Assembly: GCA_000002445.1 (NCBI GenBank)
Contig: CM000207.1
Location: 480,001-544,000, forward strand
DNA length: 64,000 nt
DNA from: Trypanosoma brucei
Lineage: Eukaryota
Direction of reading: 5' to 3'
Under the pieces are notes generated by a model. It worked only from the letters and a program-made list of their open reading frames with translations, ran no database searches and was not told the DNA's origin. The translations under genes and the position numbers were made by a program. Of the stretch, positions 44,530-64,000 are shown piece by piece (the stretch's first letter is position 1; each line of letters begins with the position of its first letter).

Positions 44530-47500
44530 AAAGCATCCACACAGCAGTGTATGGACACTCGTGGAGACTCTCATCAATATCATCCTTCTTTAGGTTGTGT
44601 GGTGGGGTTATGGTAAATTCAAGTTTTAGCATTTCCTCGCTGTAACTCACCACCAAGTCCTGCACCTGTTCCTCATTAAGATGCAACTGAGCAGCCGTTT
44701 CTTTGGTAAAGGCACTTACGACATCAGGTTTCCTCTTCTCCAAAACATAATCCCAGTCCTCACCCTCAAACCCAACATAGTGTTTCGTCACCGTTCCTGT
44801 TGCAGAAGATGAATCCTTCATCATAGCCGCACGTGCAGCGGAAGCACGTGGCACATATAGTGACCACATCTCAGAGAAGGGGCATGCAGCAAGGGTACTT
44901 AATATATCAGCATCATTTAATGAGCACCCAATGACTTTATAATCAATCAACAGACTTCCGAGTCGGCAATCAATGATAACCGCCTGCTGTGGAGAGACAC
45001 CGAGAACACGCGCAGCGTCATTACGGAATGCGTTCTCCAACCCTTCACGATCACCACTAAGCACAAGATCCCAATCATCTCCCTCAAATTTCTCTGTCAA
45101 TACCGATGACTCCCGTGGTCTAAGTTCATACAGCATCCACACAGCAGTGTATGGACATTCATTAAGACGCTCATCAATATCATCCTTCTTTAAGTTGTGT
45201 GGTGGGGTTATGGTAAATTCAAGTTTTAGCATTTCCTCGCTGTAACTCAGCACCAAGTCCTGCACCTGTTCCTCATTAAGATGCAACTGAGCAGCCGTTT
45301 CTTTGGTAAAGGCACTTACGACATCAGGTTTCCTCTTCTCCAAAACATAATCCCAGTCCTCACCCTCAAACCCAACATAGTGTTTCGTCACCGTTTCTGT
45401 TGCAGAAGATGAATCCTTCATCATAGCCGCACGTGCAGCGGAAGCACGTGGCACATATAGTGACCACACTTCAGAGAAGGGACATGCAGCAAGGGTACTT
45501 AATATATCAGCATCATTTAATGAGCACCCAATGACTTTATAATCAATCAACAGACTTCCGAGTCGGCAATCAATGATAACCACCTGCTGTGGAGAGACAC
45601 CGAGAACACGCGCAGCGTCATTACGGAATGCGTTCTCCAACCCTTCACGATCACCACTAAGCACAAGATCCCAATCATCTCCCTCAAATTTTTCTGTCAA
45701 TACCGATGACTCCCGTGGTCTAGATTCATACAGCATCCACACAGCAGTGTATGGACATTCATTAAGACGCTCATCAATATCATCCTTCTTTAGGTTGTGT
45801 GGTAGGGTTATGGTAAATTCAAGTTTTAGCATTTCCTCGCTGTAACTCACCACCAAGTCCTGCACCTGTTCCTCATTAAGTTGCAACTGAGCAGCCGTTT
45901 CTTTGGTAAAGGCACTTACGACATCAGGTTTCCTCTTCTCCAAAACATAATCCCAGTCCTCACCCTCAAATTCCACGTGGTGTTGCGTAACCGTTTCTGT
46001 TGCAGAAGATGAATCCTTCATCATAGCCGCACGTGCAGCGGAAGCACGTGGCACATATAGTGACCACATCTCAGAGAAGGGACATGCAGCAAGGGTACTT
46101 AATATATCAGCATCATTTAATGAGCTCCCAATGACTTTATAATCAATCAACAGACTTCCGAGTCGGCAATCAATGATAACCACCTGCTGTGGAGAGACAC
46201 CGAGAACACGCGCAGCGTCATTACGGAATGCGTTCTCCAACCCTTCACGATCACCACTAAGCACAAGATCCCAATCATCTCCCTCAAATTTTTCTGTCAA
46301 TACCGATGACTCCCGTGGTCTAGATTCATACAGCATCCACACAGCAGTGTATGGACATTCATTAAGACGCTCATCAATATCATCCTTCTTTAGGTTGTGT
46401 GGTAGGGTTATGGTAAATTCAAGTTTTAGCATTTCCTCGCTGTAACTCACCACCAAGTCCTGCACCTGTTCCTCATTAAGTTGCAACTGAGCAGCCGTTT
46501 CTTTGGTAAAGGCACTTACGACATCAGGTTTCCTCTTCTCCAAAACATAATCCCAGTCCTCACCCTCAAATTCCACGTGGTGTTGCGTAACCGTTTCTGT
46601 TGCAGAAGATGAATCCTCCATCATAGCCGCACGTGCAGCGGAAGCACGTGGCACATATAGTGACCACACCTCAGAGAAGGGACATGCAGCAAGGGTACTT
46701 AATATATCAGCATCATTTAATGAGCTCCCAATGACTTTATAATCAATTAACAGACTTCCGAGTCGGCAATCAATGATAACCACCTGCTGTGGAGAGACAC
46801 CGAGAACACGCGCAGCGTCATTACGGAATGCGTTCTCCAACCCTTCACGATCACCACTAAGCACAAGATCCCAGTCATCTCCCTCAAATTTTTCTGTCAA
46901 TACCGATGACTCCCGTGGTCTAGATTCATACAGCATCCACACAGCAGTGTATGGACATTCATTAAGACGCTCATCAATATCATCCTTCTTTAGGTTGTGT
47001 GGTAGGGTTATGGTAAATTCAAGTTTTAGCATTTCCTCGCTGTAACTCACCACCAAGTCCTGCACCTGTTCCTCATTAAGTTGCAACTGAGCAGCCGTTT
47101 CTTTGGTAAAGGCACTTACGACATCAGGTTTCCTCTTCTCCAAAACATAATCCCAGTCCTCACCCTCAAATTCCACGTGGTGTTGCGTAACCGTTTCTGT
47201 TGCAGAAGATGAATCCTCCATCATAGCCGCACGTGCAGCGGAAGCACGTGGCACATATAGTGACCACATCTCAGAGAAGGGACATGCAGCAAGGGTACTT
47301 AATATATCAGCATCATTTAATGAGCTCCCAATGACTTTATAATCAATCAACAGACTTCCGAGTCGGCAATCAATGATAACCACCTGCTGTGGAGAGACAC
47401 CGAGAACACGCGCAGCGTCATTACGGAATGCGTTCTCCAACCCTTCACGATCACCACTAAGCACAAGATCCCAATCATCTCCCTCAAATTTTTCTGTCAG

Positions 47501-50500
47501 TACCGATGACTCCCGTGGTCTAGATTCATACAGCATCCACACAGCAGTGTATGGACATTCATTAAGACGCTCATCAATATCATCCTTCTTTAGGTTGTGT
47601 GGTAGGGTTATGGTAAATTCAAGTTTTAGCATTTCCTCGCTGTAACTCACCACCAAGTCCTGCACCTGTTCCTCATTAAGTTGCAACTGAGCAGCCGTTT
47701 CTTTGGTAAAGGCACTTACGACATCAGGTTTCCTCTTCTCCAAAACATAATCCCAGTCCTCACCCTCAAATTCCACGTGGTGTTGCGTAACCGTTTCTGT
47801 TGCAGAAGATGAATCCTTCATCATAGCCGCACGTGCAGCGGAAGCACGTGGCACATATAGTGACCACACCTCAGAGAAGGGACATGCAGCAAGGGTACTT
47901 AATATATCAGCATCATTTAATGAGCACCCAATGACTTTATAATCAATCAACAGACTTCCGAGTCGGCAATCAATGATAACCACCTGCTGTGGAGAGACAC
48001 CGAGAACACGCGCAGCGTCATTACGGAATGCGTTCTCCAACCCTTCACGATCACCACTAAGCACAAGATCCCAATCATCTCCCTCAAATTTCTCTGTCAA
48101 TACCGATGACTCCCGTGGTCTAGATTCATACAGCATCCACACAGCAGTGTATGGACATTCATTAAGACGCTCATCAACATCATCCTTCTTTAGGTTGTGT
48201 GGTAGGGTTATGGTAAATTCAAGTTTTAGCATTTCCTCGCTGTAACTCACCACCAAGTCCTGCACCTGTTCCTCATTAAGTTGCAACTGAGCAGCCGTTT
48301 CTTTGGTAAAGGCACTTACGACATCAGGTTTCCTCTTCTCCAAAACATAATCCCAGTCCTCACCCTCAAATTCCACGTGGTGTTGCGTAACCGTTTCTGT
48401 TGCAGAAGATGAATCCTCCATCATAGCCGCACGTGCAGCGGAAGCACGTGGCACATATAGTGACCACACCTCAGAGAAGGGACATGCAGCAAGGGTACTT
48501 AATATATCAGCATCATTTAATGAGCACCCAATGACTTTATAATCAATCAACAGACTTCCGAGTCGGCAATCAATGATAACCACCTGCTGTGGAGAGACAC
48601 CGAGAGCACACGCAGCGTCATTACGGAATGCGTTCTCCAACCCTTCACGATCACCACTAAGCACAAGATCCCAGTCATCTCCCTCAAATTTTTCTGTCAA
48701 TACCGATGACTCCCGTGGTCTAGGTTCATACAGCATCCACACAGCAGTGTATGGACATTCGTGGAGACGCTCATCAATATCATCCTTCTGTAGGTTGTGT
48801 GGTAGGGTTATGGTAAATTCAAGTTTTAGCATTTCCTCGCTGTAACTCACCACCAAGTCCTGCACCTGTTCCTCATTAAGTTGCAACTGAGCAGCCGTTT
48901 CTTTGGTAAAGGCACTTACGACATCAGGTTTCCTCTTCTCCAAAACATAATCCCAGTCCTCACCCTCAAATTCCACGTGGTGTTGCGTAACCGTTTCTGT
49001 TGCAGAAGATGAATCCTCCATCATAGCCGCACGTGCAGCGGAAGCACGTGGCACATATAGTGACCACATCTCAGAGAAGGGACATGCAGCAAGGGTACTT
49101 AATATATCAGCATCATTTAATGAGCACCCAATGACTTTATAATCAATCAACAGACTTCCGAGTCGGCAATCAATGATAACCACCTGCTGTGGAGAGACAC
49201 CGAGAGCACGCGCAGCGTCATTACGGAATGCGTTCTCCAACCCTTCACGATCACCACTAAGCACAAGATCCCAATCATCTCCCTCAAATTTCTCTGTCAA
49301 TACCGATGACTCCCGTGGTCTAGATTCATACAGCATCCACACAGCAGTGTATGGACATTCATTAAGACGCTCATCAATATCATCCTTCTTTAGGTTGTGT
49401 GGTAGGGTTATGGTAAATTCAAGTTTTAGCATTTCCTCGCTGTAACTCACCACCAAGTCCTGCACCTGTTCCTCATTAAGTTGCAACTGAGCAGCCGTTT
49501 CTTTGGTAAAGGCACTTACGACATCAGGTTTCCTCTTCTCCAAAACATAATCCCAGTCCTCACCCTCAAATTCCACGTGGTGTTGCGTAACCGTTTCTGT
49601 TGCAGAAGATGAATCCTCCATCATAGCCGCACGTGCAGCGGAAGCACGTGGCACATATAGTGACCACACCTCAGAGAAGGGACATGCAGCAAGGGTACTT
49701 AATATATCAGCATCATTTAATGAGCACCCAATGACTTTATAATCAATCAACAGACTTCCGAGTCGGCAATCAATGATAACCACCTGCTGTGGAGAGACAC
49801 CGAGAGCACACGCAGCGTCATTACGGAATGCGTTCTCCAACCCTTCACGATCACCACTAAGCACAAGATCCCAATCATCTCCCTCAAATTTCTCTGTCAA
49901 TACCGATGACTCCCGTGGTCTAGATTCATACAGCATCCACACAGCAGTGTATGGACATTCATTAAGACGCTCATCAACATCATCCTTCTTTAGGTTGTGT
50001 GGTAGGGTTATGGTAAATTCAAGTTTTAGCATTTCCTCGCTGTAACTCACCACCAAGTCCTGCACCTGTTCCTCATTAAGTTGCAACTGAGCAGCCGTTT
50101 CTTTGGTAAAGGCACTTACGACATCAGGTTTCCTCTTCTCCAAAACATAATCCCAGTCCTCACCCTCAAATTCCACGTGGTGTTGCGTAACCGTTTCTGT
50201 TGCAGAAGATGAATCCTCCATCATAGCCGCACGTGCAGCGGAAGCACGTGGCACATATAGTGACCACACCTCAGAGAAGGGACATGCAGCAAGGGTACTT
50301 AATATATCAGCATCATTTAATGAGCACCCAGTGACTTTATAATCAATCAACAGACTTCCGAGTCGGCAATCAATGATAACCACCTGCTGTGGAGAGACAC
50401 CGAGAACACGCGCAGCGTCATTACGGAATGCGTTCTCCAACCCTTCACGATCACCACTAAGCACAAGATCCCAATCATCTCCCTCAAATTTTTCTGTCAG

Positions 50501-53500
50501 TACCGATGACTCCCGTGGTCTAGGTTCATACAGCATCCACACAGCAGTGTATGGACATTCGTGGAGACGCTCATCAATATCATCCTTCTTTAGGTTGTGT
50601 GGTGGGGTTATGGTAAATTCAAGTTTTAGCATTTCCTCGCTGTAACTCACCACCAAGTCCTGCACCTGTTCCTCATTAAGTTGCAACTGAGCAGCCGTTT
50701 CTTTGGTAAAGGCACTTACGACATCAGGTTTCCTCTTCTCCAAAACATAATCCCAGTCCTCACCCTCAAATTCCACGTGGTGTTGCGTAACCGTTTCTGT
50801 TGCAGAAGATGAATCCTCCATCATAGCCGCACGTGCAGCGGAAGCACGTGGCACATATAGTGACCACACCTCAGAGAAGGGACATGCAGCAAGGTTACTT
50901 AATATATCAGCATCATTTAATGAGCACCCAATGACTTTATAATCAATCAACAGACTTCCGAGTCGGCAATCAATGATAACCACCTGCTGTGGAGAGACAC
51001 CGAGAGCACGCGCAGCGTCATTACGGAATGCGTTCTCCAACCCTTCACGATCACCACTAAGCACAAGATCCCAATCATCTCCCTCAAATTTTTCTGTCAA
51101 TACCGATGACTCCCGTGGTCTAGATTCATACAGCATCCACACAGCAGTGTATGGACATTCATTAAGACGCTCATCAACATCATCCTTCTTTAGGTTGTGT
51201 GGTAGGGTTATGGTAAATTCAAGTTTTAGCATTTCCTCGCTGTAACTCACCACCAAGTCCTGCACCTGTTCCTCATTAAGTTGCAACTGAGCAGCCGTTT
51301 CTTTGGTAAAGGCACTTACGACATCAGGTTTCCTCTTCTCCAAAACATAATCCCAGTCCTCACCCTCAAATTCCACGTGGTGTTGCGTAACCGTTTCTGT
51401 TGCAGAAGATGAATCCTTCATCATAGCCGCACGTGCAGCGGAAGCACGTGGCACATATAGTGACCACACTTCAGAGAAGGGACATGCAGCAAGGGTACTT
51501 AATATATCAGCATCATTTAATGAGCACCCAATGACTTTATAATCAATCAACAGACTTCCGAGTCGGCAATCAATGATAACCACCTGCTGTGGAGAGACAC
51601 CGAGAGCACGCGCAGCGTCATTACGGAATGCGTTCTCCAACCCTTCACGATCACCACTAAGCACAAGATCCCAATCATCTCCCTCAAATTTCTCTGTCAA
51701 TACCGATGACTCCCGTGGTCTAGATTCATACAGCATCCACACAGCAGTGTATGGACATTCATTAAGACGCTCATCAACATCATCCTTCTTTAGGTTGTGT
51801 GGTAGGGTTATGGTAAATTCAAGTTTTAGCATTTCCTCGCTGTAACTCACCACCAAGTCCTGCACCTGTTCCTCATTAAGTTGCAACTGAGCAGCCGTTT
51901 CTTTGGTAAAGGCACTTACGACATCAGGTTTCCTCTTCTCCAAAACATAATCCCAGTCCTCACCCTCAAATTCCACGTGGTGTTGCGTAACCGTTTCTGT
52001 TGCAGAAGATGAATCCTTCATCATAGCCGCACGTGCAGCGGAAGCACGTGGCACATATAGTGACCACACCTCAGAGAAGGGACATGCAGCAAGGGTACTT
52101 AATATATCAGCATCATTTAATGAGCACCCAATGACTTTATAATCAATCAACAGACTTCCGAGTCGGCAATCAATGATAACCACCTGCTGTGGAGAGACAC
52201 CGAGAACACGCGCAGCGTCATTACGGAATGCGTTCTCCAACCCTTCACGATCACCACTAAGCACAAGATCCCAATCATCTCCCTCAAATTTTTCTGTCAG
52301 TACCGATGACTCCCGTGGTCTAGATTCATACAGCATCCACACAGCAGTGTATGGACATTCATTAAGACGCTCATCAATATCATCCTTCTTTAGGTTGTGT
52401 GGTAGGGTTATGGTAAATTCAAGTTTTAGCATTTCCTCGCTGTAACTCACCACCAAGTCCTGCACCTGTTCCTCATTAAGTTGCAACTGAGCAGCCGTTT
52501 CTTTGGTAAAGGCACTTACGACATCAGGTTTCCTCTTCTCCAAAACATAATCCCAGTCCTCACCCTCAAATTCCACGTGGTGTTGCGTAACCGTTTCTGT
52601 TGCAGAAGATGAATCCTCCATCATAGCCGCACGTGCAGCGGAAGCACGTGGCACATATAGTGACCACACTTCAGAGAAGGGACATGCAGCAAGGGTACTT
52701 AATATATCAGCATCATTTAATGAGCTCCCAATGACTTTATAATCAATCAACAGACTTCCGAGTCGGCAATCAATGATAACCACCTGCTGTGGAGAGACAC
52801 CGAGAACACGCGCAGCGTCATTACGGAATGCGTTCTCCAACCCTTCACGATCACCACTAAGCACAAGATCCCAATCATCTCCCTCAAATTTTTCTGTCAG
52901 TACCGATGACTCCCGTGGTCTAGGTTCATACAGCATCCACACAGCAGTGTATGGACATTCGTGGAGACGCTCATCAATATCATCCTTCTTTAGGTTGTGT
53001 GGTGGGGTTATGGTAAATTCAAGTTTTAGCATTTCCTCGCTGTAACTCACCACCAAGTCCTGCACCTGTTCCTCATTAAGTTGCAACTGAGCAGCCGTTT
53101 CTTTGGTAAAGGCACTTACGACATCAGGTTTCCTCTTCTCCAAAACATAATCCCAGTCCTCACCCTCAAATTCCACGTGGTGTTGCGTAACCGTTTCTGT
53201 TGCAGAAGATGAATCCTTCATCATAGCCGCACGTGCAGCGGAAGCACGTGGCACATATAGTGACCACATCTCAGAGAAGGGACATGCAGCAAGGGTACTT
53301 AATATATCAGCATCATTTAATGAGCACCCAATGACTTTATAATCAATCAACAGACTTCCGAGTCGGCAATCAATGATAACCACCTGCTGTGGAGAGACAC
53401 CGAGAACACGCGCAGCGTCATTACGGAATGCGTTCTCCAACCCTTCACGATCACCACTAAGCACAAGATCCCAATCATCTCCCTCAAATTTTTCTGTCAA

Positions 53501-56500: not shown

Positions 56501-59500
56501 TACCGATGACTCCCGTGGTCTAGATTCATACAGCATCCACACAGCAGTGTATGGACATTCATTAAGACGCTCATCAATATCATCCTTCTTTAGGTTGTGT
56601 GGTGGGGTTATGGTAAATTCAAGTTTTAGCATTTCCTCGCTGTAACTCACCACCAAGTCCTGCACCTGTTCCTCATTAAGTTGCAACTGAGCAGCCGTTT
56701 CTTTGGTAAAGGCACTTACGACATCAGGTTTCCTCTTCTCCAAAACATAATCCCAGTCCTCACCCTCAAATTCCACGTGGTGTTGCGTAACCGTTTCTGT
56801 TGCAGAAGATGAATCCTTCATCATAGCCGCACGTGCAGCGGAAGCACGTGGCACATATAGTGACCACATCTCAGAGAAGGGACATGCAGCAAGGGTACTT
56901 AATATATCAGCATCATTTAATGAGCACCCAATGACTTTATAATCAATCAACAGACTTCCGAGTCGGCAATCAATGATAACCACCTGCTGTGGAGAGACAC
57001 CGAGAACACGCGCAGCGTCATTACGGAATGCGTTCTCCAACCCTTCACGATCACCACTAAGCACAAGATCCCAGTCATCTCCCTCAAATTTTTCTGTCAA
57101 TACCGATGACTCCCGTGGTCTAGATTCATACAGCATCCACACAGCAGTGTATGGACATTCATTAAGACGCTCATCAACATCATCCTTCTTTAGGTTGTGT
57201 GGTAGGGTTATGGTAAATTCAAGTTTTAGCATTTCCTCGCTGTAACTCACCACCAAGTCCTGCACCTGTTCCTCATTAAGTTGCAACTGAGCAGCCGTTT
57301 CTTTGGTAAAGGCACTTACAACATCAGGTTTCCTCTTCTCCAAAACATAATCCCAGTCCTCACCCTCAAATTCCATGTGGTGTTGCGTAACCGTTCCTGT
57401 TGCAGAAGATGAATCCTTCATCATAGCCGCACGTGCAGCGGAAGCACGTGGCACATATAGTGACCACATCTCAGAGAAGGGACATGCAGCAAGGGTACTT
57501 AATATATCAGCATCATTTAATGAGCTCCCAATGACTTTATAATCAATCAACAGACTTCCGAGTCGGCAATCAATGATAACCACCTGCTGTGGAGAGACAC
57601 CGAGAACACGCGCAGCGTCATTACGGAATGCGTTCTCCAACCCTTCACGATCACCACTAAGCACAAGATCCCAGTCATCTCCCTCAAATTTCTCTGTCAA
57701 TACCGATGACTCCCGTGGTCTAGATTCATACAGCATCCACACAGCAGTGTATGGACATTCATTAAGACGCTCATCAATATCATCCTTCTTTAGGTTGTGT
57801 GGTAGGGTTATGGTAAATTCAAGTTTTAGCATTTCCTCGCTGTAACTCACCACCAAGTCCTGCACCTGTTCCTCATTAAGTTGCAACTGAGCAGCCGTTT
57901 CTTTGGTAAAGGCACTTACGACATCAGGTTTCCTCTTCTCCAAAACATAATCCCAGTCCTCACCCTCAAATTCCACGTGGTGTTGCGTAACCGTTTCTGT
58001 TGCAGAAGATGAATCCTCCATCATAGCCGCACGTGCAGCGGAAGCACGTGGCACATATAGTGACCACATCTCAGAGAAGGGGCATGCAGCAAGGGTACTT
58101 AATATATCAGCATCATTTAATGAGCACCCAATGACTTTATAATCAATCAACAGACTTCCGAGTCGGCAATCAATGATAACCACCTGCTGTGGAGAGACAC
58201 CGAGAACACGCGCAGCGTCATTACGGAATGCGTTCTCCAACCCTTCACGATCACCACTAAGCACAAGATCCCAATCATCTCCCTCAAATTTCTCTGTCAA
58301 TACCGATGACTCCCGTGGTCTAGGTTCATACAGCATCCACACAGCAGTGTATGGACATTCGTGGAGACGCTCATCAATATCATCCTTCTTTAGGTTGTGT
58401 GGTGGGGTTATGGTAAATTCAAGTTTTAGCATTTCCTCGCTGTAACTCACCACCAAGTCCTGCACCTGTTCCTCATTAAGTTGCAACTGAGCAGCCGTTT
58501 CTTTGGTAAAGGCACTTACGACATCAGGTTTCCTCTTCTCCAAAACATAATCCCAGTCCTCACCCTCAAATTCCACGTGGTGTTGCGTAACCGTTTCTGT
58601 TGCAGAAGATGAATCCTCCATCATAGCCGCACGTGCAGCGGAAGCACGTGGCACATATAGTGACCACATCTCAGAGAAGGGACATGCAGCAAGGTTACTT
58701 AATATATCAGCATCATTTAATGAGCACCCAATGACTTTATAATCAATCAACAGACTTCCGAGTCGGCAATCAATGATAACCACCTGCTGTGGAGAGACAC
58801 CGAGAACACGCGCAGCGTCATTACGGAATGCGTTCTCCAACCCTTCACGATCACCACTAAGCACAAGATCCCAATCATCTCCCTCAAATTTTTCTGTCAG
58901 TACCGATGACTCCCGTGGTCTAGATTCATACAGCATCCACACAGCAGTGTATGGACATTCATTAAGACGCTCATCAACATCATCCTTCTTTAGGTTGTGT
59001 GGTAGGGTTATGGTAAATTCAAGTTTTAGCATTTCCTCGCTGTAACTCACCACCAAGTCCTGCACCTGTTCCTCATTAAGTTGCAACTGAGCAGCCGTTT
59101 CTTTGGTAAAGGCACTTACGACATCAGGTTTCCTCTTCTCCAAAACATAATCCCAGTCCTCACCCTCAAATTCCACGTGGTGTTGCGTAACCGTTTCTGT
59201 TGCAGAAGATGAATCCTCCATCATAGCCGCACGTGCAGCGGAAGCACGTGGCACATATAGTGACCACACTTCAGAGAAGGGACATGCAGCAAGGGTACTT
59301 AATATATCAGCATCATTTAATGAGCACCCAATGACTTTATAATCAATCAACAGACTTCCGAGTCGGCAATCAATGATAACCACCTGCTGTGGAGAGACAC
59401 CGAGAGCACGCGCAGCGTCATTACGGAATGCGTTCTCCAACCCTTCACGATCACCACTAAGCACAAGATCCCAGTCATCTCCCTCAAATTTCTCTGTCAA

Positions 59501-62500
59501 TACCGATGACTCCCGTGGTCTAGATTCATACAGCATCCACACAGCAGTGTATGGACATTCATTAAGACGCTCATCAATATCATCCTTCTTTAGGTTGTGT
59601 GGTGGGGTTATGGTAAATTCAAGTTTTAGCATTTCCTCGCTGTAACTCACCACCAAGTCCTGCACCTGTTCCTCATTAAGTTGCAACTGAGCAGCCGTTT
59701 CTTTGGTAAAGGCACTTACGACATCAGGTTTCCTCTTCTCCAAAACATAATCCCAGTCCTCACCCTCAAATTCCACGTGGTGTTGCGTAACCGTTTCTGT
59801 TGCAGAAGATGAATCCTTCATCATAGCCGCACGTGCAGCGGAAGCACGTGGCACATATAGTGACCACATCTCAGAGAAGGGACATGCAGCAAGGGTACTT
59901 AATATATCAGCATCATTTAATGAGCACCCAATGACTTTATAATCAATCAACAGACTTCCGAGTCGGCAATCAATGATAACCACCTGCTGTGGAGAGACAC
60001 CGAGAGCACACGCAGCGTCATTACGGAATGCGTTCTCCAACCCTTCACGATCACCACTAAGCACAAGATCCCAATCATCTCCCTCAAATTTCTCTGTCAA
60101 TACCGATGACTCCCGTGGTCTAGATTCATACAGCATCCACACAGCAGTGTATGGACATTCATTAAGACGCTCATCAATATCATCCTTCTTTAGGTTGTGT
60201 GGTAGGGTTATGGTAAATTCAAGTTTTAGCATTTCCTCGCTGTAACTCACCACCAAGTCCTGCACCTGTTCCTCATTAAGTTGCAACTGAGCAGCCGTTT
60301 CTTTGGTAAAGGCACTTACGACATCAGGTTTCCTCTTCTCCAAAACATAATCCCAGTCCTCACCCTCAAATTCCATGTGGTGTTGCGTAACCGTTTCTGT
60401 TGCAGAAGATGAATCCTCCATCATAGCCGCACGTGCAGCGGAAGCACGTGGCACATATAGTGACCACACCTCAGAGAAGGGACATGCAGCAAGGGTACTT
60501 AATATATCAGCATCATTTAATGAGCACCCAATGACTTTATAATCAATCAACAGACTTCCGAGTCGGCAATCAATGATAACCACCTGCTGTGGAGAGACAC
60601 CGAGAACACGCGCAGCGTCATTACGGAATGCGTTCTCCAACCCTTCACGATCACCACTAAGCACAAGATCCCAATCATCTCCCTCAAATTTTTCTGTCAG
60701 TACCGATGACTCCCGTGGTCTAGATTCATACAGCATCCACACAGCAGTGTATGGACATTCATTAAGACGCTCATCAATATCATCCTTCTTTAGGTTGTGT
60801 GGTAGGGTTATGGTAAATTCAAGTTTTAGCATTTCCTCGCTGTAACTCACCACCAAGTCCTGCACCTGTTCCTCATTAAGTTGCAACTGAGCAGCCGTTT
60901 CTTTGGTAAAGGCACTTACGACATCAGGTTTCCTCTTCTCCAAAACATAATCCCAGTCCTCACCCTCAAATTCCACGTGGTGTTGCGTAACCGTTTCTGT
61001 TGCAGAAGATGAATCCTTCATCATAGCCGCACGTGCAGCGGAAGCACGTGGCACATATAGTGACCACACTTCAGAGAAGGGACATGCAGCAAGGGTACTT
61101 AATATATCAGCATCATTTAATGAGCACCCAATGACTTTATAATCAATCAACAGACTTCCGAGTCGGCAATCAATGATAACCACCTGCTGTGGAGAGACAC
61201 CGAGAGCACGCGCAGCGTCATTACGGAATGCGTTCTCCAACCCTTCACGATCACCACTAAGCACAAGATCCCAGTCATCTCCCTCAAATTTCTCTGTCAA
61301 TACCGATGACTCCCGTGGTCTAGATTCATACAGCATCCACACAGCAGTGTATGGACATTCATTAAGACGCTCATCAATATCATCCTTCTTTAGGTTGTGT
61401 GGTAGGGTTATGGTAAATTCAAGTTTTAGCATTTCCTCGCTGTAACTCACCACCAAGTCCTGCACCTGTTCCTCATTAAGTTGCAACTGAGCAGCCGTTT
61501 CTTTGGTAAAGGCACTTACGACATCAGGTTTCCTCTTCTCCAAAACATAATCCCAGTCCTCACCCTCAAATTCCACGTGGTGTTGCGTAACCGTTTCTGT
61601 TGCAGAAGATGAATCCTCCATCATAGCCGCACGTGCAGCGGAAGCACGTGGCACATATAGTGACCACATCTCAGAGAAGGGACATGCAGCAAGGGTACTT
61701 AATATATCAGCATCATTTAATGAGCACCCAATGACTTTATAATCAATCAACAGACTTCCGAGTCGGCAATCAATGATAACCACCTGCTGTGGAGAGACAC
61801 CGAGAGCACGCGCAGCGTCATTACGGAATGCGTTCTCCAACCCTTCACGATCACCACTAAGCACAAGATCCCAATCATCTCCCTCAAATTTTTCTGTCAA
61901 TACCGATGACTCCCGTGGTCTAGATTCATACAGCATCCACACAGCAGTGTATGGACATTCATTAAGACGCTCATCAACATCATCCTTCTTTAGGTTGTGT
62001 GGTAGGGTTATGGTAAATTCAAGTTTTAGCATTTCCTCGCTGTAACTCACCACCAAGTCCTGCACCTGTTCCTCATTAAGTTGCAACTGAGCAGCCGTTT
62101 CTTTGGTAAAGGCACTTACGACATCAGGTTTCCTCTTCTCCAAAACATAATCCCAGTCCTCACCCTCAAATTCCACGTGGTGTTGCGTAACCGTTTCTGT
62201 TGCAGAAGATGAATCCTCCATCATAGCCGCACGTGCAGCGGAAGCACGTGGCACATATAGTGACCACACTTCAGAGAAGGGACATGCAGCAAGGGTACTT
62301 AATATATCAGCATCATTTAATGAGCACCCAATGACTTTATAATCAATCAACAGACTTCCGAGTCGGCAATCAATGATAACCACCTGCTGTGGAGAGACAC
62401 CGAGAACACGCGCAGCGTCATTACGGAATGCGTTCTCCAACCCTTCACGATCACCACTAAGCACAAGATCCCAGTCATCTCCCTCAAATTTTTCTGTCAA

Positions 62501-64000
62501 TACCGATGACTCCCGTGGTCTAGATTCATACAGCATCCACACAGCAGTGTATGGACATTCATTAAGACGCTCATCAATATCATCCTTCTTTAGGTTGTGT
62601 GGTGGGGTTATGGTAAATTCAAGTTTTAGCATTTCCTCGCTGTAACTCACCACCAAGTCCTGCACCTGTTCCTCATTAAGTTGCAACTGAGCAGCCGTTT
62701 CTTTGGTAAAGGCACTTACGACATCAGGTTTCCTCTTCTCCAAAACATAATCCCAGTCCTCACCCTCAAATTCCACGTGGTGTTGCGTAACCGTTCCTGT
62801 TGCAGAAGATGAATCCTTCATCATAGCCGCACGTGCAGCGGAAGCACGTGGCACATATAGTGACCACATCTCAGAGAAGGGACATGCAGCAAGGGTACTT
62901 AATATATCAGCATCATTTAATGAGCACCCAATGACTTTATAATCAATCAACAGACTTCCGAGTCGGCAATCAATGATAACCACCTGCTGTGGAGAGACAC
63001 CGAGAACACGCGCAGCGTCATTACGGAATGCGTTCTCCAACCCTTCACGATCACCACTAAGCACAAGATCCCAGTCATCTCCCTCAAATTTTTCTGTCAA
63101 TACCGATGACTCCCGTGGTCTAGATTCATACAGCATCCACACAGCAGTGTATGGACATTCATTAAGACGCTCATCAACATCATCCTTCTTTAGGTTGTGT
63201 GGTGGGGTTATGGTAAATTCAAGTTTTAGCATTTCCTCGCTGTAACTCACCACCAAGTCCTGCACCTGTTCCTCATTAAGTTGCAACTGAGCAGCCGTTT
63301 CTTTGGTAAAGGCACTTACGACATCAGGTTTCCTCTTCTCCAAAACATAATCCCAGTCCTCACCCTCAAATTCCACGTGGTGTTGCGTAACCGTTTCTGT
63401 TGCAGAAGATGAATCCTTCATCATAGCCGCACGTGCAGCGGAAGCACGTGGCACATATAGTGACCACATCTCAGAGAAGGGGCATGCAGCAAGGGTACTT
63501 AATATATCAGCATCATTTAATGAGCACCCAATGACTTTATAATCAATCAACAGACTTCCGAGTCGGCAATCAATGATAACCACCTGCTGTGGAGAGACAC
63601 CGAGAACACGCGCAGCGTCATTACGGAATGCGTTCTCCAACCCTTCACGATCACCACTAAGCACAAGATCCCAATCATCTCCCTCAAATTTTTCTGTCAA
63701 TACCGATGACTCCCGTGGTCTAGATTCATACAGCATCCACACAGCAGTGTATGGACATTCATTAAGACGCTCATCAATATCATCCTTCTTTAGGTTGTGT
63801 GGTGGGGTTATGGTAAATTCAAGTTTTAGCATTTCCTCGCTGTAACTCACCACCAAGTCCTGCACCTGTTCCTCATTAAGTTGCAACTGAGCAGCCGTTT
63901 CTTTGGTAAAGGCACTTACGACATCAGGTTTCCTCTTCTCCAAAACATAATCCCAGTCCTCACCCTCAAATTCCATGTGGTGTTGCGTAACCGTTCCTGT
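44525..64000 (-). CDS. giant repetitive protein, partial. At least 6483 aa lie in the window and the 5' end is beyond it. It is built of 200-aa tandem units.
   Basis: A single uninterrupted minus-strand ORF runs across more than 19.4 kb. There are 32 units such as ...VEFEGEDWDYVLEKRKPDVV...ECPYTAVWMLYESRPRESSVLTEKFEGDDWDLVLSGDREG...CPFSEMWSLYVPRASAARAAMMKDSSSATETVTQHH. The stop codon is at 44525-44527. Confidence 0.8.
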   Translation of the reverse strand, partial: TGTVTQHHMEFEGEDWDYVLEKRKPDVVSAFTKETAAQLQLNEEQVQDLVVSYSEEMLKLEFTITPPHNLKKDDIDERLNECPYTAVWMLYESRPRESSVLTEKFEGDDWDLVLSGDREGLENAFRNDAARVLGVSPQQVVIIDCRLGSLLIDYKVIGCSLNDADILSTLAACPFSEMWSLYVPRASAARAAMMKDSSSATETVTQHHVEFEGEDWDYVLEKRKPDVVSAFTKETAAQLQLNEEQVQDLVVSYSEEMLKLEFTITPPHNLKKDDVDERLNECPYTAVWMLYESRPRESSVLTEKFEGDDWDLVLSGDREGLENAFRNDAARVLGVSPQQVVIIDCRLGSLLIDYKVIGCSLNDADILSTLAACPFSEMWSLYVPRASAARAAMMKDSSSATGTVTQHHVEFEGEDWDYVLEKRKPDVVSAFTKETAAQLQLNEEQVQDLVVSYSEEMLKLEFTITPPHNLKKDDIDERLNECPYTAVWMLYESRPRESSVLTEKFEGDDWDLVLSGDREGLENAFRNDAARVLGVSPQQVVIIDCRLGSLLIDYKVIGCSLNDADILSTLAACPFSEVWSLYVPRASAARAAMMEDSSSATETVTQHHVEFEGEDWDYVLEKRKPDVVSAFTKETAAQLQLNEEQVQDLVVSYSEEMLKLEFTITLPHNLKKDDVDERLNECPYTAVWMLYESRPRESSVLTEKFEGDDWDLVLSGDREGLENAFRNDAARALGVSPQQVVIIDCRLGSLLIDYKVIGCSLNDADILSTLAACPFSEMWSLYVPRASAARAAMMEDSSSATETVTQHHVEFEGEDWDYVLEKRKPDVVSAFTKETAAQLQLNEEQVQDLVVSYSEEMLKLEFTITLPHNLKKDDIDERLNECPYTAVWMLYESRPRESSVLTEKFEGDDWDLVLSGDREGLENAFRNDAARALGVSPQQVVIIDCRLGSLLIDYKVIGCSLNDADILSTLAACPFSEVWSLYVPRASAARAAMMKDSSSATETVTQHHVEFEGEDWDYVLEKRKPDVVSAFTKETAAQLQLNEEQVQDLVVSYSEEMLKLEFTITLPHNLKKDDIDERLNECPYTAVWMLYESRPRESSVLTEKFEGDDWDLVLSGDREGLENAFRNDAARVLGVSPQQVVIIDCRLGSLLIDYKVIGCSLNDADILSTLAACPFSEVWSLYVPRASAARAAMMEDSSSATETVTQHHMEFEGEDWDYVLEKRKPDVVSAFTKETAAQLQLNEEQVQDLVVSYSEEMLKLEFTITLPHNLKKDDIDERLNECPYTAVWMLYESRPRESSVLTEKFEGDDWDLVLSGDREGLENAFRNDAACALGVSPQQVVIIDCRLGSLLIDYKVIGCSLNDADILSTLAACPFSEMWSLYVPRASAARAAMMKDSSSATETVTQHHVEFEGEDWDYVLEKRKPDVVSAFTKETAAQLQLNEEQVQDLVVSYSEEMLKLEFTITPPHNLKKDDIDERLNECPYTAVWMLYESRPRESSVLTEKFEGDDWDLVLSGDREGLENAFRNDAARALGVSPQQVVIIDCRLGSLLIDYKVIGCSLNDADILSTLAACPFSEVWSLYVPRASAARAAMMEDSSSATETVTQHHVEFEGEDWDYVLEKRKPDVVSAFTKETAAQLQLNEEQVQDLVVSYSEEMLKLEFTITLPHNLKKDDVDERLNECPYTAVWMLYESRPRESSVLTEKFEGDDWDLVLSGDREGLENAFRNDAARVLGVSPQQVVIIDCRLGSLLIDYKVIGCSLNDADILSNLAACPFSEMWSLYVPRASAARAAMMEDSSSATETVTQHHVEFEGEDWDYVLEKRKPDVVSAFTKETAAQLQLNEEQVQDLVVSYSEEMLKLEFTITPPHNLKKDDIDERLHECPYTAVWMLYEPRPRESSVLTEKFEGDDWDLVLSGDREGLENAFRNDAARVLGVSPQQVVIIDCRLGSLLIDYKVIGCSLNDADILSTLAACPFSEMWSLYVPRASAARAAMMEDSSSATETVTQHHVEFEGEDWDYVLEKRKPDVVSAFTKETAAQLQLNEEQVQDLVVSYSEEMLKLEFTITLPHNLKKDDIDERLNECPYTAVWMLYESRPRESSVLTEKFEGDDWDLVLSGDREGLENAFRNDAARVLGVSPQQVVIIDCRLGSLLIDYKVIGSSLNDADILSTLAACPFSEMWSLYVPRASAARAAMMKDSSSATGTVTQHHMEFEGEDWDYVLEKRKPDVVSAFTKETAAQLQLNEEQVQDLVVSYSEEMLKLEFTITLPHNLKKDDVDERLNECPYTAVWMLYESRPRESSVLTEKFEGDDWDLVLSGDREGLENAFRNDAARVLGVSPQQVVIIDCRLGSLLIDYKVIGCSLNDADILSTLAACPFSEMWSLYVPRASAARAAMMKDSSSATETVTQHHVEFEGEDWDYVLEKRKPDVVSAFTKETAAQLQLNEEQVQDLVVSYSEEMLKLEFTITPPHNLKKDDIDERLNECPYTAVWMLYESRPRESSVLTEKFEGDDWDLVLSGDREGLENAFRNDAARVLGVSPQQVVIIDCRLGSLLIDYKVIGCSLNDADILSTLAACPFSEVWSLYVPRASAARAAMMKDSSSATETVTQHHVEFEGEDWDYVLEKRKPDVVSAFTKETAAQLQLNEEQVQDLVVSYSEEMLKLEFTITPPHNLKKDDIDERLNECPYTAVWMLYESRPRESSVLTEKFEGDDWDLVLSGDREGLENAFRNDAARVLGVSPQQVVIIDCRLGSLLIDYKVIGCSLNDADILSTLAACPFSEMWSLYVPRASAARAAMMKDSSSATETVTQHHVEFEGEDWDYVLEKRKPDVVSAFTKETAAQLQLNEEQVQDLVVSYSEEMLKLEFTITLPHNLKKDDIDERLNECPYTAVWMLYESRPRESSVLTEKFEGDDWDLVLSGDREGLENAFRNDAARVLGVSPQQVVIIDCRLGSLLIDYKVIGCSLNDSDILSTLAACPFSEMWSLYVPRASAARAAMMKDSSSATETVTQHHVEFEGEDWDYVLEKRKPDVVSAFTKETAAQLQLNEEQVQDLVVSYSEEMLKLEFTITPPHNLKKDDIDERLNECPYTAVWMLYESRPRESSVLTEKFEGDDWDLVLSGDREGLENAFRNDAARVLGVSPQQVVIIDCRLGSLLIDYKVIGCSLNDADILSTLAACPFSEVWSLYVPRASAARAAMMKDSSSATETVTQHHVEFEGEDWDYVLEKRKPDVVSAFTKETAAQLQLNEEQVQDLVVSYSEEMLKLEFTITPPHNLKKDDIDERLNECPYTAVWMLYESRPRESSVLTEKFEGDDWDLVLSGDREGLENAFRNDAARVLGVSPQQVVIIDCRLGSLLIDYKVIGRSLNDSDILSTLAACPFSEMWSLYVPRASAARAAMMKDSSSATGTVTKHYVGFEGEDWDYVLEKRKPDVVSAFTKETAAQLHLNEEQVQDLVLSYSEEMLKLEFTITPPHNLKKDDIDERLNECPYTAVWMLYESRPRESSVLTEKFEGDDWDLVLSGDREGLENAFRNDAARVLGVSPQQVVIIDCRLGSLLIDYKVIGCSLNDADILSTLAACPFSEMWSLYVPRASAARAAMMKDSSSATETVTQHHVEFEGEDWDYVLEKRKPDVVSAFTKETAAQLQLNEEQVQDLVVSYSEEMLKLEFTITPPHNLKKDDIDERLHECPYTAVWMLYEPRPRESSVLTEKFEGDDWDLVLSGDREGLENAFRNDAARVLGVSPQQVVIIDCRLGSLLIDYKVIGSSLNDADILSTLAACPFSEVWSLYVPRASAARAAMMEDSSSATETVTQHHVEFEGEDWDYVLEKRKPDVVSAFTKETAAQLQLNEEQVQDLVVSYSEEMLKLEFTITLPHNLKKDDIDERLNECPYTAVWMLYESRPRESSVLTEKFEGDDWDLVLSGDREGLENAFRNDAARVLGVSPQQVVIIDCRLGSLLIDYKVIGCSLNDADILSTLAACPFSEVWSLYVPRASAARAAMMKDSSSATETVTQHHVEFEGEDWDYVLEKRKPDVVSAFTKETAAQLQLNEEQVQDLVVSYSEEMLKLEFTITLPHNLKKDDVDERLNECPYTAVWMLYESRPRESSVLTEKFEGDDWDLVLSGDREGLENAFRNDAARALGVSPQQVVIIDCRLGSLLIDYKVIGCSLNDADILSTLAACPFSEVWSLYVPRASAARAAMMKDSSSATETVTQHHVEFEGEDWDYVLEKRKPDVVSAFTKETAAQLQLNEEQVQDLVVSYSEEMLKLEFTITLPHNLKKDDVDERLNECPYTAVWMLYESRPRESSVLTEKFEGDDWDLVLSGDREGLENAFRNDAARALGVSPQQVVIIDCRLGSLLIDYKVIGCSLNDADILSNLAACPFSEVWSLYVPRASAARAAMMEDSSSATETVTQHHVEFEGEDWDYVLEKRKPDVVSAFTKETAAQLQLNEEQVQDLVVSYSEEMLKLEFTITPPHNLKKDDIDERLHECPYTAVWMLYEPRPRESSVLTEKFEGDDWDLVLSGDREGLENAFRNDAARVLGVSPQQVVIIDCRLGSLLIDYKVTGCSLNDADILSTLAACPFSEVWSLYVPRASAARAAMMEDSSSATETVTQHHVEFEGEDWDYVLEKRKPDVVSAFTKETAAQLQLNEEQVQDLVVSYSEEMLKLEFTITLPHNLKKDDVDERLNECPYTAVWMLYESRPRESSVLTEKFEGDDWDLVLSGDREGLENAFRNDAACALGVSPQQVVIIDCRLGSLLIDYKVIGCSLNDADILSTLAACPFSEVWSLYVPRASAARAAMMEDSSSATETVTQHHVEFEGEDWDYVLEKRKPDVVSAFTKETAAQLQLNEEQVQDLVVSYSEEMLKLEFTITLPHNLKKDDIDERLNECPYTAVWMLYESRPRESSVLTEKFEGDDWDLVLSGDREGLENAFRNDAARALGVSPQQVVIIDCRLGSLLIDYKVIGCSLNDADILSTLAACPFSEMWSLYVPRASAARAAMMEDSSSATETVTQHHVEFEGEDWDYVLEKRKPDVVSAFTKETAAQLQLNEEQVQDLVVSYSEEMLKLEFTITLPHNLQKDDIDERLHECPYTAVWMLYEPRPRESSVLTEKFEGDDWDLVLSGDREGLENAFRNDAACALGVSPQQVVIIDCRLGSLLIDYKVIGCSLNDADILSTLAACPFSEVWSLYVPRASAARAAMMEDSSSATETVTQHHVEFEGEDWDYVLEKRKPDVVSAFTKETAAQLQLNEEQVQDLVVSYSEEMLKLEFTITLPHNLKKDDVDERLNECPYTAVWMLYESRPRESSVLTEKFEGDDWDLVLSGDREGLENAFRNDAARVLGVSPQQVVIIDCRLGSLLIDYKVIGCSLNDADILSTLAACPFSEVWSLYVPRASAARAAMMKDSSSATETVTQHHVEFEGEDWDYVLEKRKPDVVSAFTKETAAQLQLNEEQVQDLVVSYSEEMLKLEFTITLPHNLKKDDIDERLNECPYTAVWMLYESRPRESSVLTEKFEGDDWDLVLSGDREGLENAFRNDAARVLGVSPQQVVIIDCRLGSLLIDYKVIGSSLNDADILSTLAACPFSEMWSLYVPRASAARAAMMEDSSSATETVTQHHVEFEGEDWDYVLEKRKPDVVSAFTKETAAQLQLNEEQVQDLVVSYSEEMLKLEFTITLPHNLKKDDIDERLNECPYTAVWMLYESRPRESSVLTEKFEGDDWDLVLSGDREGLENAFRNDAARVLGVSPQQVVIIDCRLGSLLIDYKVIGSSLNDADILSTLAACPFSEVWSLYVPRASAARAAMMEDSSSATETVTQHHVEFEGEDWDYVLEKRKPDVVSAFTKETAAQLQLNEEQVQDLVVSYSEEMLKLEFTITLPHNLKKDDIDERLNECPYTAVWMLYESRPRESSVLTEKFEGDDWDLVLSGDREGLENAFRNDAARVLGVSPQQVVIIDCRLGSLLIDYKVIGSSLNDADILSTLAACPFSEMWSLYVPRASAARAAMMKDSSSATETVTQHHVEFEGEDWDYVLEKRKPDVVSAFTKETAAQLQLNEEQVQDLVVSYSEEMLKLEFTITLPHNLKKDDIDERLNECPYTAVWMLYESRPRESSVLTEKFEGDDWDLVLSGDREGLENAFRNDAARVLGVSPQQVVIIDCRLGSLLIDYKVIGCSLNDADILSTLAACPFSEVWSLYVPRASAARAAMMKDSSSATETVTKHYVGFEGEDWDYVLEKRKPDVVSAFTKETAAQLHLNEEQVQDLVLSYSEEMLKLEFTITPPHNLKKDDIDERLNECPYTAVWMLYELRPRESSVLTEKFEGDDWDLVLSGDREGLENAFRNDAARVLGVSPQQAVIIDCRLGSLLIDYKVIGCSLNDADILSTLAACPFSEMWSLYVPRASAARAAMMKDSSSATGTVTKHYVGFEGEDWDYVLEKRKPDVVSAFTKETAAQLHLNEEQVQDLVVSYSEEMLKLEFTITPPHNLKKDDIDESLHECPYTAVWMLY
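44530..64000. repeat. 600-bp tandem repeat array (at least 32.5 units) with exact period. It is coding, on the minus strand.
   Basis: The antisense 90-aa ORFs recur exactly every 600 bp from 44973 to 63573 with no indels. The units are about 98-99% identical at the nucleotide level. Confidence 0.95.

What the first reader, a model, noticed from the sequence alone, without database searches (positions are those of the whole stretch)
44530..64000. Each 200-aa unit is itself an ancient duplication of two ~95-aa modules (FEGEDWD...W-LY)
Within every unit, the first half (FEGEDWDYVLEKRKPDVVSAFTKETAAQLQLNEEQVQDLVVSYSEEMLKLEFTITPPHNLKKDDIDERLNECPYTAVWMLY) aligns collinearly with the second half (FEGDDWDLVLSGDREGLENAFRNDAARVLGVSPQQVVIIDCRLGSLLIDYKVIGCSLNDADILSTLAACPFSEMWSLY). 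Conserved positions are FEGxDWDxVL, AF, AA, QV, a hydrophobic core, CP[YF] and W.LY. The protein is therefore a beads-on-a-string array of at least 65 alternating A/B domains of about 95 aa, each probably an independent fold. I do not recognise this module as a named domain family.
Basis: seen in the sequence. Interest (0 to 1): 0.6.

Follow-up and report, generated by a model that had tools for sequence, protein, structure and literature searches.

The report
Gb4 repeats: paired FAZ1-type domains
The region is the repetitive tail of Gb4, a known giant cytoskeletal protein of Trypanosoma brucei. Each 200-residue repeat does consist of two related small folded domains, but that domain is already catalogued (Pfam PF23398), so the finding is correct and mostly not new.

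Summary
The minus-strand ORF 44525..64000, still open at the window end, holds 33 A and 32 B modules at an exact 200-aa period. A and B are homologous (BLASTP E=1e-12; hhalign 99.4%, E=1.6e-21).

First, the module is a named family: both halves match Pfam PF23398 (FAZ1_cons) over their full length. Second, the gene is Gb4 (Tb09.160.1200, 8214 aa). It has the longest ORF in T. brucei, 600-nt repeats, and its protein sits at the posterior microtubule plus ends.

A-type and B-type modules each have closer partners in the Gb4 of other trypanosomes than they have in each other. The split is therefore old, whereas the array is a recent amplification (98.7% DNA identity between units).

One side result may be new. 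The heads of Gb4 orthologues, and of two paralogues next to the gene in this window, carry a dynein-type microtubule-binding stalk (E=3.7e-20 against solved dyneins).

Proposed mechanism, by inference: the head anchors on microtubules and the acidic domain array acts as a long tether or scaffold.

The parts
44525..64000 (-). The 3' 19.5 kb of the Gb4 gene (Tb09.160.1200): 6491 codons plus the stop codon at 44525-44527. It holds 32 complete 600-nt units and a final A module. The ORF is open at the window end.
   Evidence: Identity as Gb4: the peptide VVIIDCRLGSLLIDYKVI occurs 30 times and is the repeat listed for Gb4 Tb09.160.1200 (PMC2254594). Gb4 is described with 600-nt repeats and no unique 3' end (PMC5397161). 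The closest relatives are annotated Gb4.
63401..64000 (-). One example 600-nt (200-aa) repeat unit. Unit k spans 64000-600k-599 to 64000-600k, for k=0..31.
63725..63994 (-). A module (TVTQHH.EFEGEDWD...VWMLYE), a PF23398 FAZ1_cons domain.
   Evidence: Pfam 6.9e-30, 103.3 bits, profile positions 2-93 of 93. AF2 elements b1 3-10, a1 14-36, b2 44-51, b3 55-62, a2 70-79, a3 83-90. Translation checked.
63701..63724 (-). Short A-to-B linker (SRPRESSV).
63449..63700 (-). B module (LTEKFEGDDWD...MWSLYVP), a PF23398 FAZ1_cons domain. It has a G-S turn (RLGSLLIDY) in the b2-b3 hairpin.
   Evidence: Pfam 8e-17, 61.4 bits, profile positions 7-91 of 93. AF2 elements b1 99-103, a1 108-131, b2 138-144, b3 148-155, a2 161-169, a3 174-179. 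GS motif counted.
63401..63448 (-). B-to-A linker (RASAARAAMMKDSSSA), rich in Ala and Ser. It continues into the first residues of the next unit.
   Evidence: pLDDT falls at the C-terminal end of the model (last block 79).
44528..44800 (-). Terminal A module. The protein ends exactly at ...VWMLY, so there is no unique C-terminal sequence.
   Evidence: This agrees with PMC5397161.
42177..43916 (-). Context: a 579-aa Gb4-head paralogue immediately downstream of Gb4. It has a dynein-stalk-like region (43251-43664) and one FAZ1_cons domain (42231-42500).
   Evidence: Pfam 7e-16. Collinear with the T. theileri Gb4 head plus first module, E=1e-12, and with the head of the Porcisia protein P0009, the top-scoring hit and a probable Gb4 relative, E=5e-8. 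Coordinates checked.
38901..41183 (-). Context: a 760-aa second paralogue, 94% identical to the 579-aa protein over 572 aa, followed by a distinct acidic tail. It has a dynein-stalk-like region (40518-40931) and one FAZ1_cons domain (39501-39770).
   Evidence: The head alone matches a dynein heavy chain (9y6s_7G residues 3228-3364) at E=3.2e-8. Coordinates checked.
30837..31433 (-). Context: a 198-aa protein with a C-terminal FAZ1_cons domain (30846-31106).
   Evidence: Pfam 1.3e-13. Identical to EAN76343.1, which UniRef names a FAZ1 conserved domain-containing protein.
32261..32845 (-). Context: a 194-aa protein with a C-terminal FAZ1_cons domain (32273-32530).
   Evidence: Pfam 5.1e-12. Identical to EAN76344.1.

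Best explanation
The region is the repetitive 3' part of Gb4 (Tb09.160.1200, 8214 aa, about 928 kDa). [quoted passage not shown] Shown here: each 200-aa unit is a didomain of two diverged copies (A and B, 29% identical) of the kinetoplastid FAZ1_cons domain (Pfam PF23398). Each copy is a compact module of about 90 residues with three antiparallel strands and four helices. The fold is ferredoxin/SEA-like and has no close solved relative. A joins B through about 8 residues, and B joins the next A through a 16-20-residue Ala/Ser-rich link. The A and B types predate the radiation of the genus Trypanosoma. The T. brucei array of about 37 units is a recent amplification and homogenisation of one A-B pair taken from an older, heterogeneous module array. 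The conserved residues are almost all core hydrophobics and aromatics, so the module looks structural rather than enzymatic. Inferred: the unique N-terminal head, which lies outside this window, carries a dynein-type coiled-coil stalk with a microtubule-binding domain, as do the heads of Gb4 orthologues and of the two paralogues in this window. That head anchors the protein on microtubules. The strongly acidic chain of about 75 folded modules (pI 4.4, roughly -18 net charge per unit) then serves as a long tether, spacer or scaffold at the posterior tip, several hundred nanometres long if extended. It may also offer many copies of a protein-protein contact module that FAZ and flagellar cytoskeleton proteins share.
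Against: The role of the repeats has not been tested; a 2021 paper states that their function is unknown (PMC8625193). T. brucei Gb4's own head is not in the window, so assigning it a dynein-like head rests on orthologues and paralogues. PF12777 only just reaches its cut-off (24.2 against 24 bits), and no binding data exist. The fold is a prediction. The relative orientation of A and B is only moderately supported and I could not inspect the coordinates. That the FAZ10 globular domain belongs to PF23398 is my inference, not the authors' statement. The equivalence of Pfam-B PB000506 with PF23398 is also inferred.
Confidence: 0.8

Rival explanations
1. The repeats themselves are the microtubule-binding elements, as in the repetitive MARP proteins of T. 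brucei. Many weak sites would then coat or cap microtubule ends.
For: Gb4 is described as capping posterior microtubules (Rindisbacher 1993, cited). MARP repeats bind microtubules directly (PMC8625193). The same domain occurs in many cytoskeleton-associated proteins (PMC4406125).
Against: The unit is strongly acidic (pI 4.4, 37 D+E against 19 K+R), whereas the microtubule surface is itself acidic. The modules are folded globular domains, not short basic motifs. A dedicated dynein-type microtubule-binding region sits in the heads of the family.
Confidence: 0.12
2. The modules are true distant homologues of SEA domains. The G-S turn in B modules would be an autoproteolytic or mechanically labile site, making the tail a force-sensitive chain.
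Confidence: 0.06
3. The array has no structural role of its own. It would be a neutral or runaway expansion that is tolerated, or that acts mainly as a repetitive antigen.
For: The units are nearly identical (98.7%) and mosaic in their variants, which suggests ongoing unequal exchange. Gb4 appears in lists of repetitive antigens (PMC2254594; T. cruzi antigen atlas among the hits).
Against: A multi-module tail follows the head in all orthologues examined across trypanosomatids, including diverged and non-homogenised arrays of 22-24 modules. The reading frame is intact over 19.5 kb. The fold-determining residues are conserved. The protein has been detected by mass spectrometry (PMC3545838).
Confidence: 0.07

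Closest known systems
Gb4 of Trypanosoma brucei (Tb09.160.1200 / Tb427tmp.160.1200; Rindisbacher, Hemphill & Seebeck 1993)
   Same: It is this gene. The 600-nt repeat, the B-module peptide, the absence of a unique 3' end and the chromosome 9 context all agree.
   Different: Nothing differs. The window simply lacks the first ~1723 codons, including the 752-codon unique head.
Pfam PF23398 FAZ1_cons, as found in FAZ1 and in the cytoskeletal proteins listed with Pfam-B PB000506 (FAZ4, FAZ6, FAZ8, FAZ10, PFC20, FLAM8)
   Same: Both halves of the unit are full-length members well above the cut-off. All carriers are cytoskeleton-associated (PMC4406125).
   Different: Most T. brucei carriers listed have one or a few copies next to coiled coils. 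Gb4 has about 75 copies in a homogenised A-B array. The equivalence of PB000506 with PF23398 is inferred.
Globular end domains of the FAZ10 central region (bioRxiv 10.64898/2026.05.05.722045)
   Same: The described topology is the same (three antiparallel strands and four helices, about 12 kDa). The domain was shown to be folded and monomeric. FAZ10 is listed with PB000506.
   Different: The authors do not name the family, and I could not compare the sequences.
SEA domains and other ferredoxin-like alpha+beta sandwiches (MUC16 SEA repeats, PCDH15 MAD12, ACT)
   Same: They are the best structural matches, and there is a G-S turn in the same hairpin. MUC16 is likewise a giant array of such domains (own knowledge for MUC16).
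Dynein heavy chain stalk and microtubule-binding domain (PF12777). This applies to the Gb4 head, not to the repeats.
   Same: The heads of Gb4 orthologues and of the two paralogues in this window align through CC1, the globular MTBD and the start of CC2.
   Different: There is no AAA+ motor, and the stalk hairpin is fused to FAZ1_cons modules. The Pfam score is borderline. Microtubule binding has not been tested.

Membership tests
Pfam PF23398 (FAZ1_cons) | Score at or above the family's gathering cut-off (27.5 bits) | tested here: met
   A module 103.3 bits (6.9e-30) and B module 61.4 bits (8e-17). Four stretches were found in a two-unit query.
Pfam PF23398 (FAZ1_cons) | Match over the full length of the 93-position profile | tested here: met
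   A covers profile positions 2-93 and B covers 7-91.
Pfam PF23398 (FAZ1_cons) | Family core residues: F-x-G-x-x-W at the b1/a1 junction and W-x-L-Y at the C-terminus | tested here: met
   Both A and B carry them. Frequencies in 322 modules: W14 98%, G11 94%, F9 81%, Y89 86%, L88 78%.
Gb4 (Tb09.160.1200) | Tandem 600-nt repeats that encode the peptide VVIIDCRLGSLLIDYKVI | tested here: met
   The period is exactly 600 nt. There are 30 perfect copies in the window, against 35 in the full 8214-aa protein (PMC2254594).
Gb4 (Tb09.160.1200) | The ORF ends within the repeats, with no unique 3' coding sequence | tested here: met
   The stop codon directly follows ...VWMLY of an A module. PMC5397161 says the same.
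Gb4 (Tb09.160.1200) | T. brucei chromosome 9 context | tested here: met
   Three neighbouring proteins are identical to EAN76342/3/4 of TREU927, on a 3.06-Mb record. That this record is chromosome 9 rests on the Tb09 gene identifier.
Gb4 (Tb09.160.1200) | 2256-nt unique 5' region, and localisation at the posterior cytoskeleton | not testable with these tools
   The 5' end lies beyond position 64000, and localisation is an experimental property.
SEA domain (PF01390) | Sequence match to the SEA profile | tested here: not met
   No SEA hit at E up to 10 for the unit or among the families listed for the 56 module pairs (top 25 of 65 shown).
SEA domain (PF01390) | b-a-b-b-a-b ferredoxin-like fold with four strands | tested here: inconclusive
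SEA domain (PF01390) | G/SVVV autoproteolysis motif in the b2-b3 hairpin | tested here: inconclusive
   B has LG-SLLIDY at that hairpin and A has none. The motif occurs in 64 of 322 family modules. Cleavage was not tested.
Dynein stalk/MTBD (PF12777), for the Gb4-family head | Match to the dynein stalk profile and to solved MTBDs, including the globular part | tested here: met
   The head profile matches 50 or more dynein chains, best E=3.7e-20. Isolated 130-141-aa MTBD constructs score about 1e-19 to 1e-20. PF12777 gives 24.2 bits against a cut-off of 24, in 5 of 8 heads. The window paralogue alone scores E=3.2e-8.
Dynein stalk/MTBD (PF12777), for the Gb4-family head | Present in T. brucei Gb4 itself, and binds microtubules | not testable with these tools
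   The head of T. brucei Gb4 is outside the window.

The most novel reading that the evidence does not exclude
Gb4-family proteins may be non-motor microtubule-associated proteins that bind microtubules through a dynein-derived stalk and microtubule-binding hairpin. They would then carry, as cargo or tether, an array of kinetoplastid-specific SEA-like modules. In T. brucei that array has been re-expanded to about 75 copies from a single A-B pair. I found no paper in the searchable library that links Gb4 to a dynein-type binding domain. The Pfam score is borderline, so databases probably do not annotate it. A more speculative extension is that the G-S hairpin of B-type modules is a labile site, which would make the tail responsive to force.
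Probability: 0.35. Interest if true: 0.55.

Novelty: already known. Interest (0 to 1): 0.3.

Why it matters
For the finding as stated, little changes. The gene has been known since 1993, the domain is in Pfam, and any InterPro view of Gb4 would show two domains per repeat.

The useful additions are these:
- A high-confidence fold for a domain shared by many flagellum-attachment-zone and flagellar proteins whose molecular role is unknown.
- Evidence that the A and B types are conserved across trypanosomes, while the array itself is young.
- A concrete and testable idea of how Gb4 attaches to microtubules, through a dynein-type binding head. This could explain its plus-end or posterior localisation. 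It would also be a rare case of the dynein stalk being reused outside a motor.

Tried and rejected
- **FAZ10 as the gene's identity:** rejected. FAZ10 has 35-aa repeats and lies on chromosome 7.
- **Tandem Repeats Finder:** found nothing, because the 600-nt unit exceeds its 500-nt maximum period.
- **The search for homologous proteins:** returned no hits with the unit or with a five-module alignment, although family members are in the collection. The exhaustive profile search was used instead.
- **Single-sequence AlphaFold2:** the A-B unit gave a poor model (pLDDT 41.8). Only the 56-sequence alignment gave a confident one.
- **Foldseek against afdb50:** not available. I therefore could not look for relatives outside kinetoplastids by structure.
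- **blastn of the repeat unit against the rest of the window:** no DNA-level copies elsewhere. The 'VEGEDVDG*' end of the 579-aa paralogue is therefore not a detectable remnant of a repeat.
- **Profile search of the module against PDB sequences:** one partial hit only, mL100.
- **Pfam scan of the window paralogue's head alone:** no dynein hit. The link appeared only with a profile of orthologous heads and with phmmer against the PDB.
- **The original Gb4 paper (PubMed 8459837):** not held. I could not check whether its authors had already noted the two-half structure of the repeat.

Full report
**What is there.** All long ORFs in the window lie on the minus strand, as expected for a trypanosome polycistronic unit. 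Three neighbouring proteins are identical to T. brucei brucei TREU927 entries: the kinase EAN76342.1, and EAN76343.1 and EAN76344.1.

The ORF 44525..64000(-) translates into 6491 codons followed by a stop. It has no in-frame stop at its upstream end, so the gene runs off the window. FEGEDWD occurs 33 times and FEGDDWD 32 times. The period is exactly 200 aa and the A-to-B offset is exactly 94 aa.

The 32 full units average 98.7% DNA identity, and all 32 are distinct. Of the 200 amino-acid columns, 21 are variable, and the variants are distributed in a mosaic pattern. Tandem Repeats Finder missed the array only because its longest period is 500 nt.

**Are the two halves related?** Yes.
- BLASTP of A against B gives 24/82 identities, E=1e-12, collinear from FEG.DWD to W.LY.
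- Profiles built from A-type and B-type modules of several species align with hhalign probability 99.4% and E=1.6e-21.
- Each half independently matches the same Pfam model end to end.

**Is the module unnamed?** No. It is Pfam PF23398, 'FAZ1, conserved domain'. A scores 103.3 bits and B scores 61.4 bits, against a cut-off of 27.5.

A 2026 preprint on repeat proteins of protozoa lists PF23398 among enriched signatures. In 2015 Sunter and colleagues reported a Pfam-B domain (PB000506) in nine T. brucei proteins: FAZ proteins including FAZ1, FAZ4, FAZ6 and FAZ8, plus GB4, PFC20, FLAM8 and Tb927.10.870. All the characterised ones are cytoskeleton-associated (PMC4406125; table in PMC4827413). I infer that PB000506 and PF23398 describe the same domain but could not test it.

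**Which gene is it?** I first considered FAZ10 and rejected it, because it has 35-aa repeats and lies on chromosome 7. The gene is Gb4.
- PMC5397161 describes GB4 (Tb427tmp.160.1200) as the longest ORF of T. brucei, 24,645 nt. It has a 2256-nt unique 5' part, then 37 repeats of 600 nt, and no unique 3' end. [quoted passage not shown]
- PMC2254594 lists 'Gb4, Tb09.160.1200, 8214 aa, 35 x VVIIDCRLGSLLIDYKVI'. That peptide is in the B module and occurs 30 times in the window.
- PMC3545838 detected the 928-kDa protein by mass spectrometry.
- The protein is used as a marker of microtubule plus ends and the cell posterior.
- The function of its repeats is stated to be unknown.
- The closest relatives of A and B in an exhaustive profile search are annotated Gb4 in T. 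cruzi marinkellei, T. vivax, T. conorhini, T. grayi, T. theileri and Strigomonas.

**The family.** A profile of five modules from this window finds 264 cluster representatives at E of 1e-3 or better, and 142 at 1e-10 or better. Many carry 5-26 copies. Every hit that carries a name is from a kinetoplastid.

In 322 non-redundant modules the most conserved positions are W14 (98%), G11 (94%), Y89 (86%), F9 (81%), L88 (78%) and D32 (77%). These are mostly core residues. I see no set that looks catalytic.

**The fold.** A single-sequence AlphaFold2 run was poor (pLDDT 41.8). With an alignment of 56 adjacent module pairs, the A-B unit is predicted with mean pLDDT 95.6 and pTM 0.72. Each module follows the order b1-a1-(short helix)-b2-b3-a2-a3.
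- Foldseek against the PDB gives nothing at E of 1e-3 or better; its top hits are engineered tandem ferredoxin folds and ACT pairs.
- At sequence level the only PDB hit is a partial one to the kinetoplastid mitoribosomal protein mL100.
- No Pfam SEA match exists.

It belongs to a common fold class and has no close solved relative.

A recent preprint on FAZ10 describes 12-kDa globular domains with three antiparallel strands and four helices. They are folded and monomeric in solution. That is the same topology and probably the same family, by my inference.

**How old is the duplication?** T. brucei A is 44-49% identical to particular modules of T. vivax and T. cruzi marinkellei Gb4. B is 51-56% identical to other modules of the same proteins. 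A and B are only 29% identical to each other.

A neighbour-joining tree, without bootstrap, groups A with modules from five other species and B with modules from two other species. The T. vivax fragment alternates B-A-B-A.

Other Gb4 orthologues, in Trypanosoma and Strigomonas, contain several further module types. A probable relative in Porcisia has 24 diverged modules after a head of about 450 residues.

A and B are therefore two old members of a heterogeneous array, and T. brucei has recently amplified one A-B pair. 'Ancient duplication' is right for the homology but too simple as a history.

**Surroundings.** Four further genes in the window carry one FAZ1_cons domain each:
- two small proteins, at 30837-31433 and 32261-32845;
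- two tandem paralogues, at 42177-43916 (579 aa) and 38901-41183 (760 aa), which are 94% identical over 572 residues.

A fifth small gene (33726-34358) has only the N-terminal half of the module. The two larger paralogues are collinear with the head plus first module of T. theileri Gb4 (E=1e-12) and with the head of the Porcisia protein P0009, a probable Gb4 relative (E=5e-8).

**The head.** Reading these heads, I recognised a pattern I recalled from dynein and tested it.
- A profile of eight heads matches dynein heavy chains at E=3.7e-20, across CC1, the globular microtubule-binding domain and the start of CC2. It also matches isolated 130-141-residue MTBD constructs at about 1e-19 to 1e-20. 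The similarity is therefore not just coiled coil.
- PF12777 is hit by 5 of 8 heads but only just reaches its cut-off (24.2 against 24 bits). This probably explains why databases name these proteins only after the FAZ1 domain.
- The head of the window's 760-aa protein alone matches a dynein heavy chain at E=3.2e-8.
- No paper in the library connects Gb4 with a dynein-type binding domain.
- T. brucei Gb4's own head is beyond the window, so for that protein this remains an inference.

**Mechanism.**
- Shown: this is a chain of folded, acidic didomains (pI 4.4, 37 acidic against 19 basic residues per unit), joined by short A-to-B links and longer Ala/Ser-rich B-to-A links.
- Inferred: the head anchors on microtubules through the dynein-like domain, and the tail of about 75 modules acts as a long tether, spacer or scaffold at the posterior tip. 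If each module spans about 3 nm (my estimate from its size), the tail could extend several hundred nanometres.
- The acidity argues against the repeats being the microtubule-binding part.
- A G-S turn sits in the b2-b3 hairpin of B and in 20% of family modules. This is where SEA domains carry their self-cleavage site. I regard it as a lead with low probability.

**Verdict.** Both the gene and the domain are already known, so the finding itself scores low. The predicted fold and the dynein-like head are the parts worth following up.

Noticed in passing
window 40518-40931(-) and 43251-43664(-); also the heads of Gb4 orthologues P0009, P0021, P0023, P0041 (residues ~60-290): The N-terminal heads of the two Gb4-like paralogues, and of Gb4 orthologues, contain a dynein-type stalk with a microtubule-binding domain. 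The head profile scores E=3.7e-20 against solved dyneins, and the window protein alone scores 3.2e-8. Pfam PF12777 is only borderline. I found no paper that links Gb4 to this domain.
   Followed up: partly
window 38901-41183(-) and 42177-43916(-): Two tandem paralogues lie directly downstream of Gb4. They are 94% identical over 572 residues and then diverge. The 579-aa copy stops at ...TTESVEGEDVDG*, and the 760-aa copy continues into an acidic tail. At 760 aa, the longer one is close in length to the 752-codon unique head reported for Gb4. Whether Gb4's own head is a third copy could not be checked.
   Followed up: partly
window 30837-31433(-), 32261-32845(-), 33726-34358(-): This is a cluster of three small genes (198, 194 and 210 aa). 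Each has a variable N-terminal part and a C-terminal FAZ1_cons module. The third has only the first half of the module (strand-helix-strand-strand) and gives no Pfam hit. T. equiperdum has the same arrangement (L001).
   Followed up: partly
B modules throughout 44528-64000(-), e.g. 63449-63700: A G-S-L-L-I motif sits exactly in the predicted b2-b3 hairpin of B modules, and 64 of 322 family modules have G-S-L-x-x there. SEA domains carry their G/SVVV self-cleavage site at the equivalent position. There is no sequence-level SEA match.
   Followed up: partly
PDB 7aih chain BG (mL100), residues 1224-1279: A kinetoplastid mitochondrial ribosomal protein matches the N-terminal half of the module (FDGDW...AF..D motif) at E=6e-5. 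The domain may therefore also occur outside cytoskeletal proteins, and part of it may already be visible in a solved structure.
   Followed up: no
window 44528-64000(-), unit variants: Variant residues such as P/L at unit position 66, M/V at 178, K/E at 195 and I/V at 75 occur in shuffled combinations among units. A distinct A variant (TKHYVGFEG...LHLNEEQVQDLVL) appears in three places, including the last two A modules. This pattern fits repeated unequal exchange or gene conversion.
   Followed up: no
family alignment of 322 modules: Three polar positions are fairly conserved across the family: H5 61%, D32 77% and H64 62%. They are only partly kept in T. brucei Gb4: A has H5, E32 and P/L64, and B lacks H5. 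Whether they form a site in other members is unknown.
   Followed up: no
tool behaviour: The word-indexed protein search returned no hit for the unit or for a module alignment. Yet exact family members from this window are in the same collection, and the exhaustive search found 264 representatives. A negative result from that tool is not informative for this family.
   Followed up: yes
window 35916-37076(-), 26182-29196(-), 24245-25348(-): Ordinary neighbours: a SCO1/SenC homologue, a 1004-aa protein kinase (EAN76342.1) and a methyltransferase-domain protein. All are on the same strand as Gb4.
   Followed up: no
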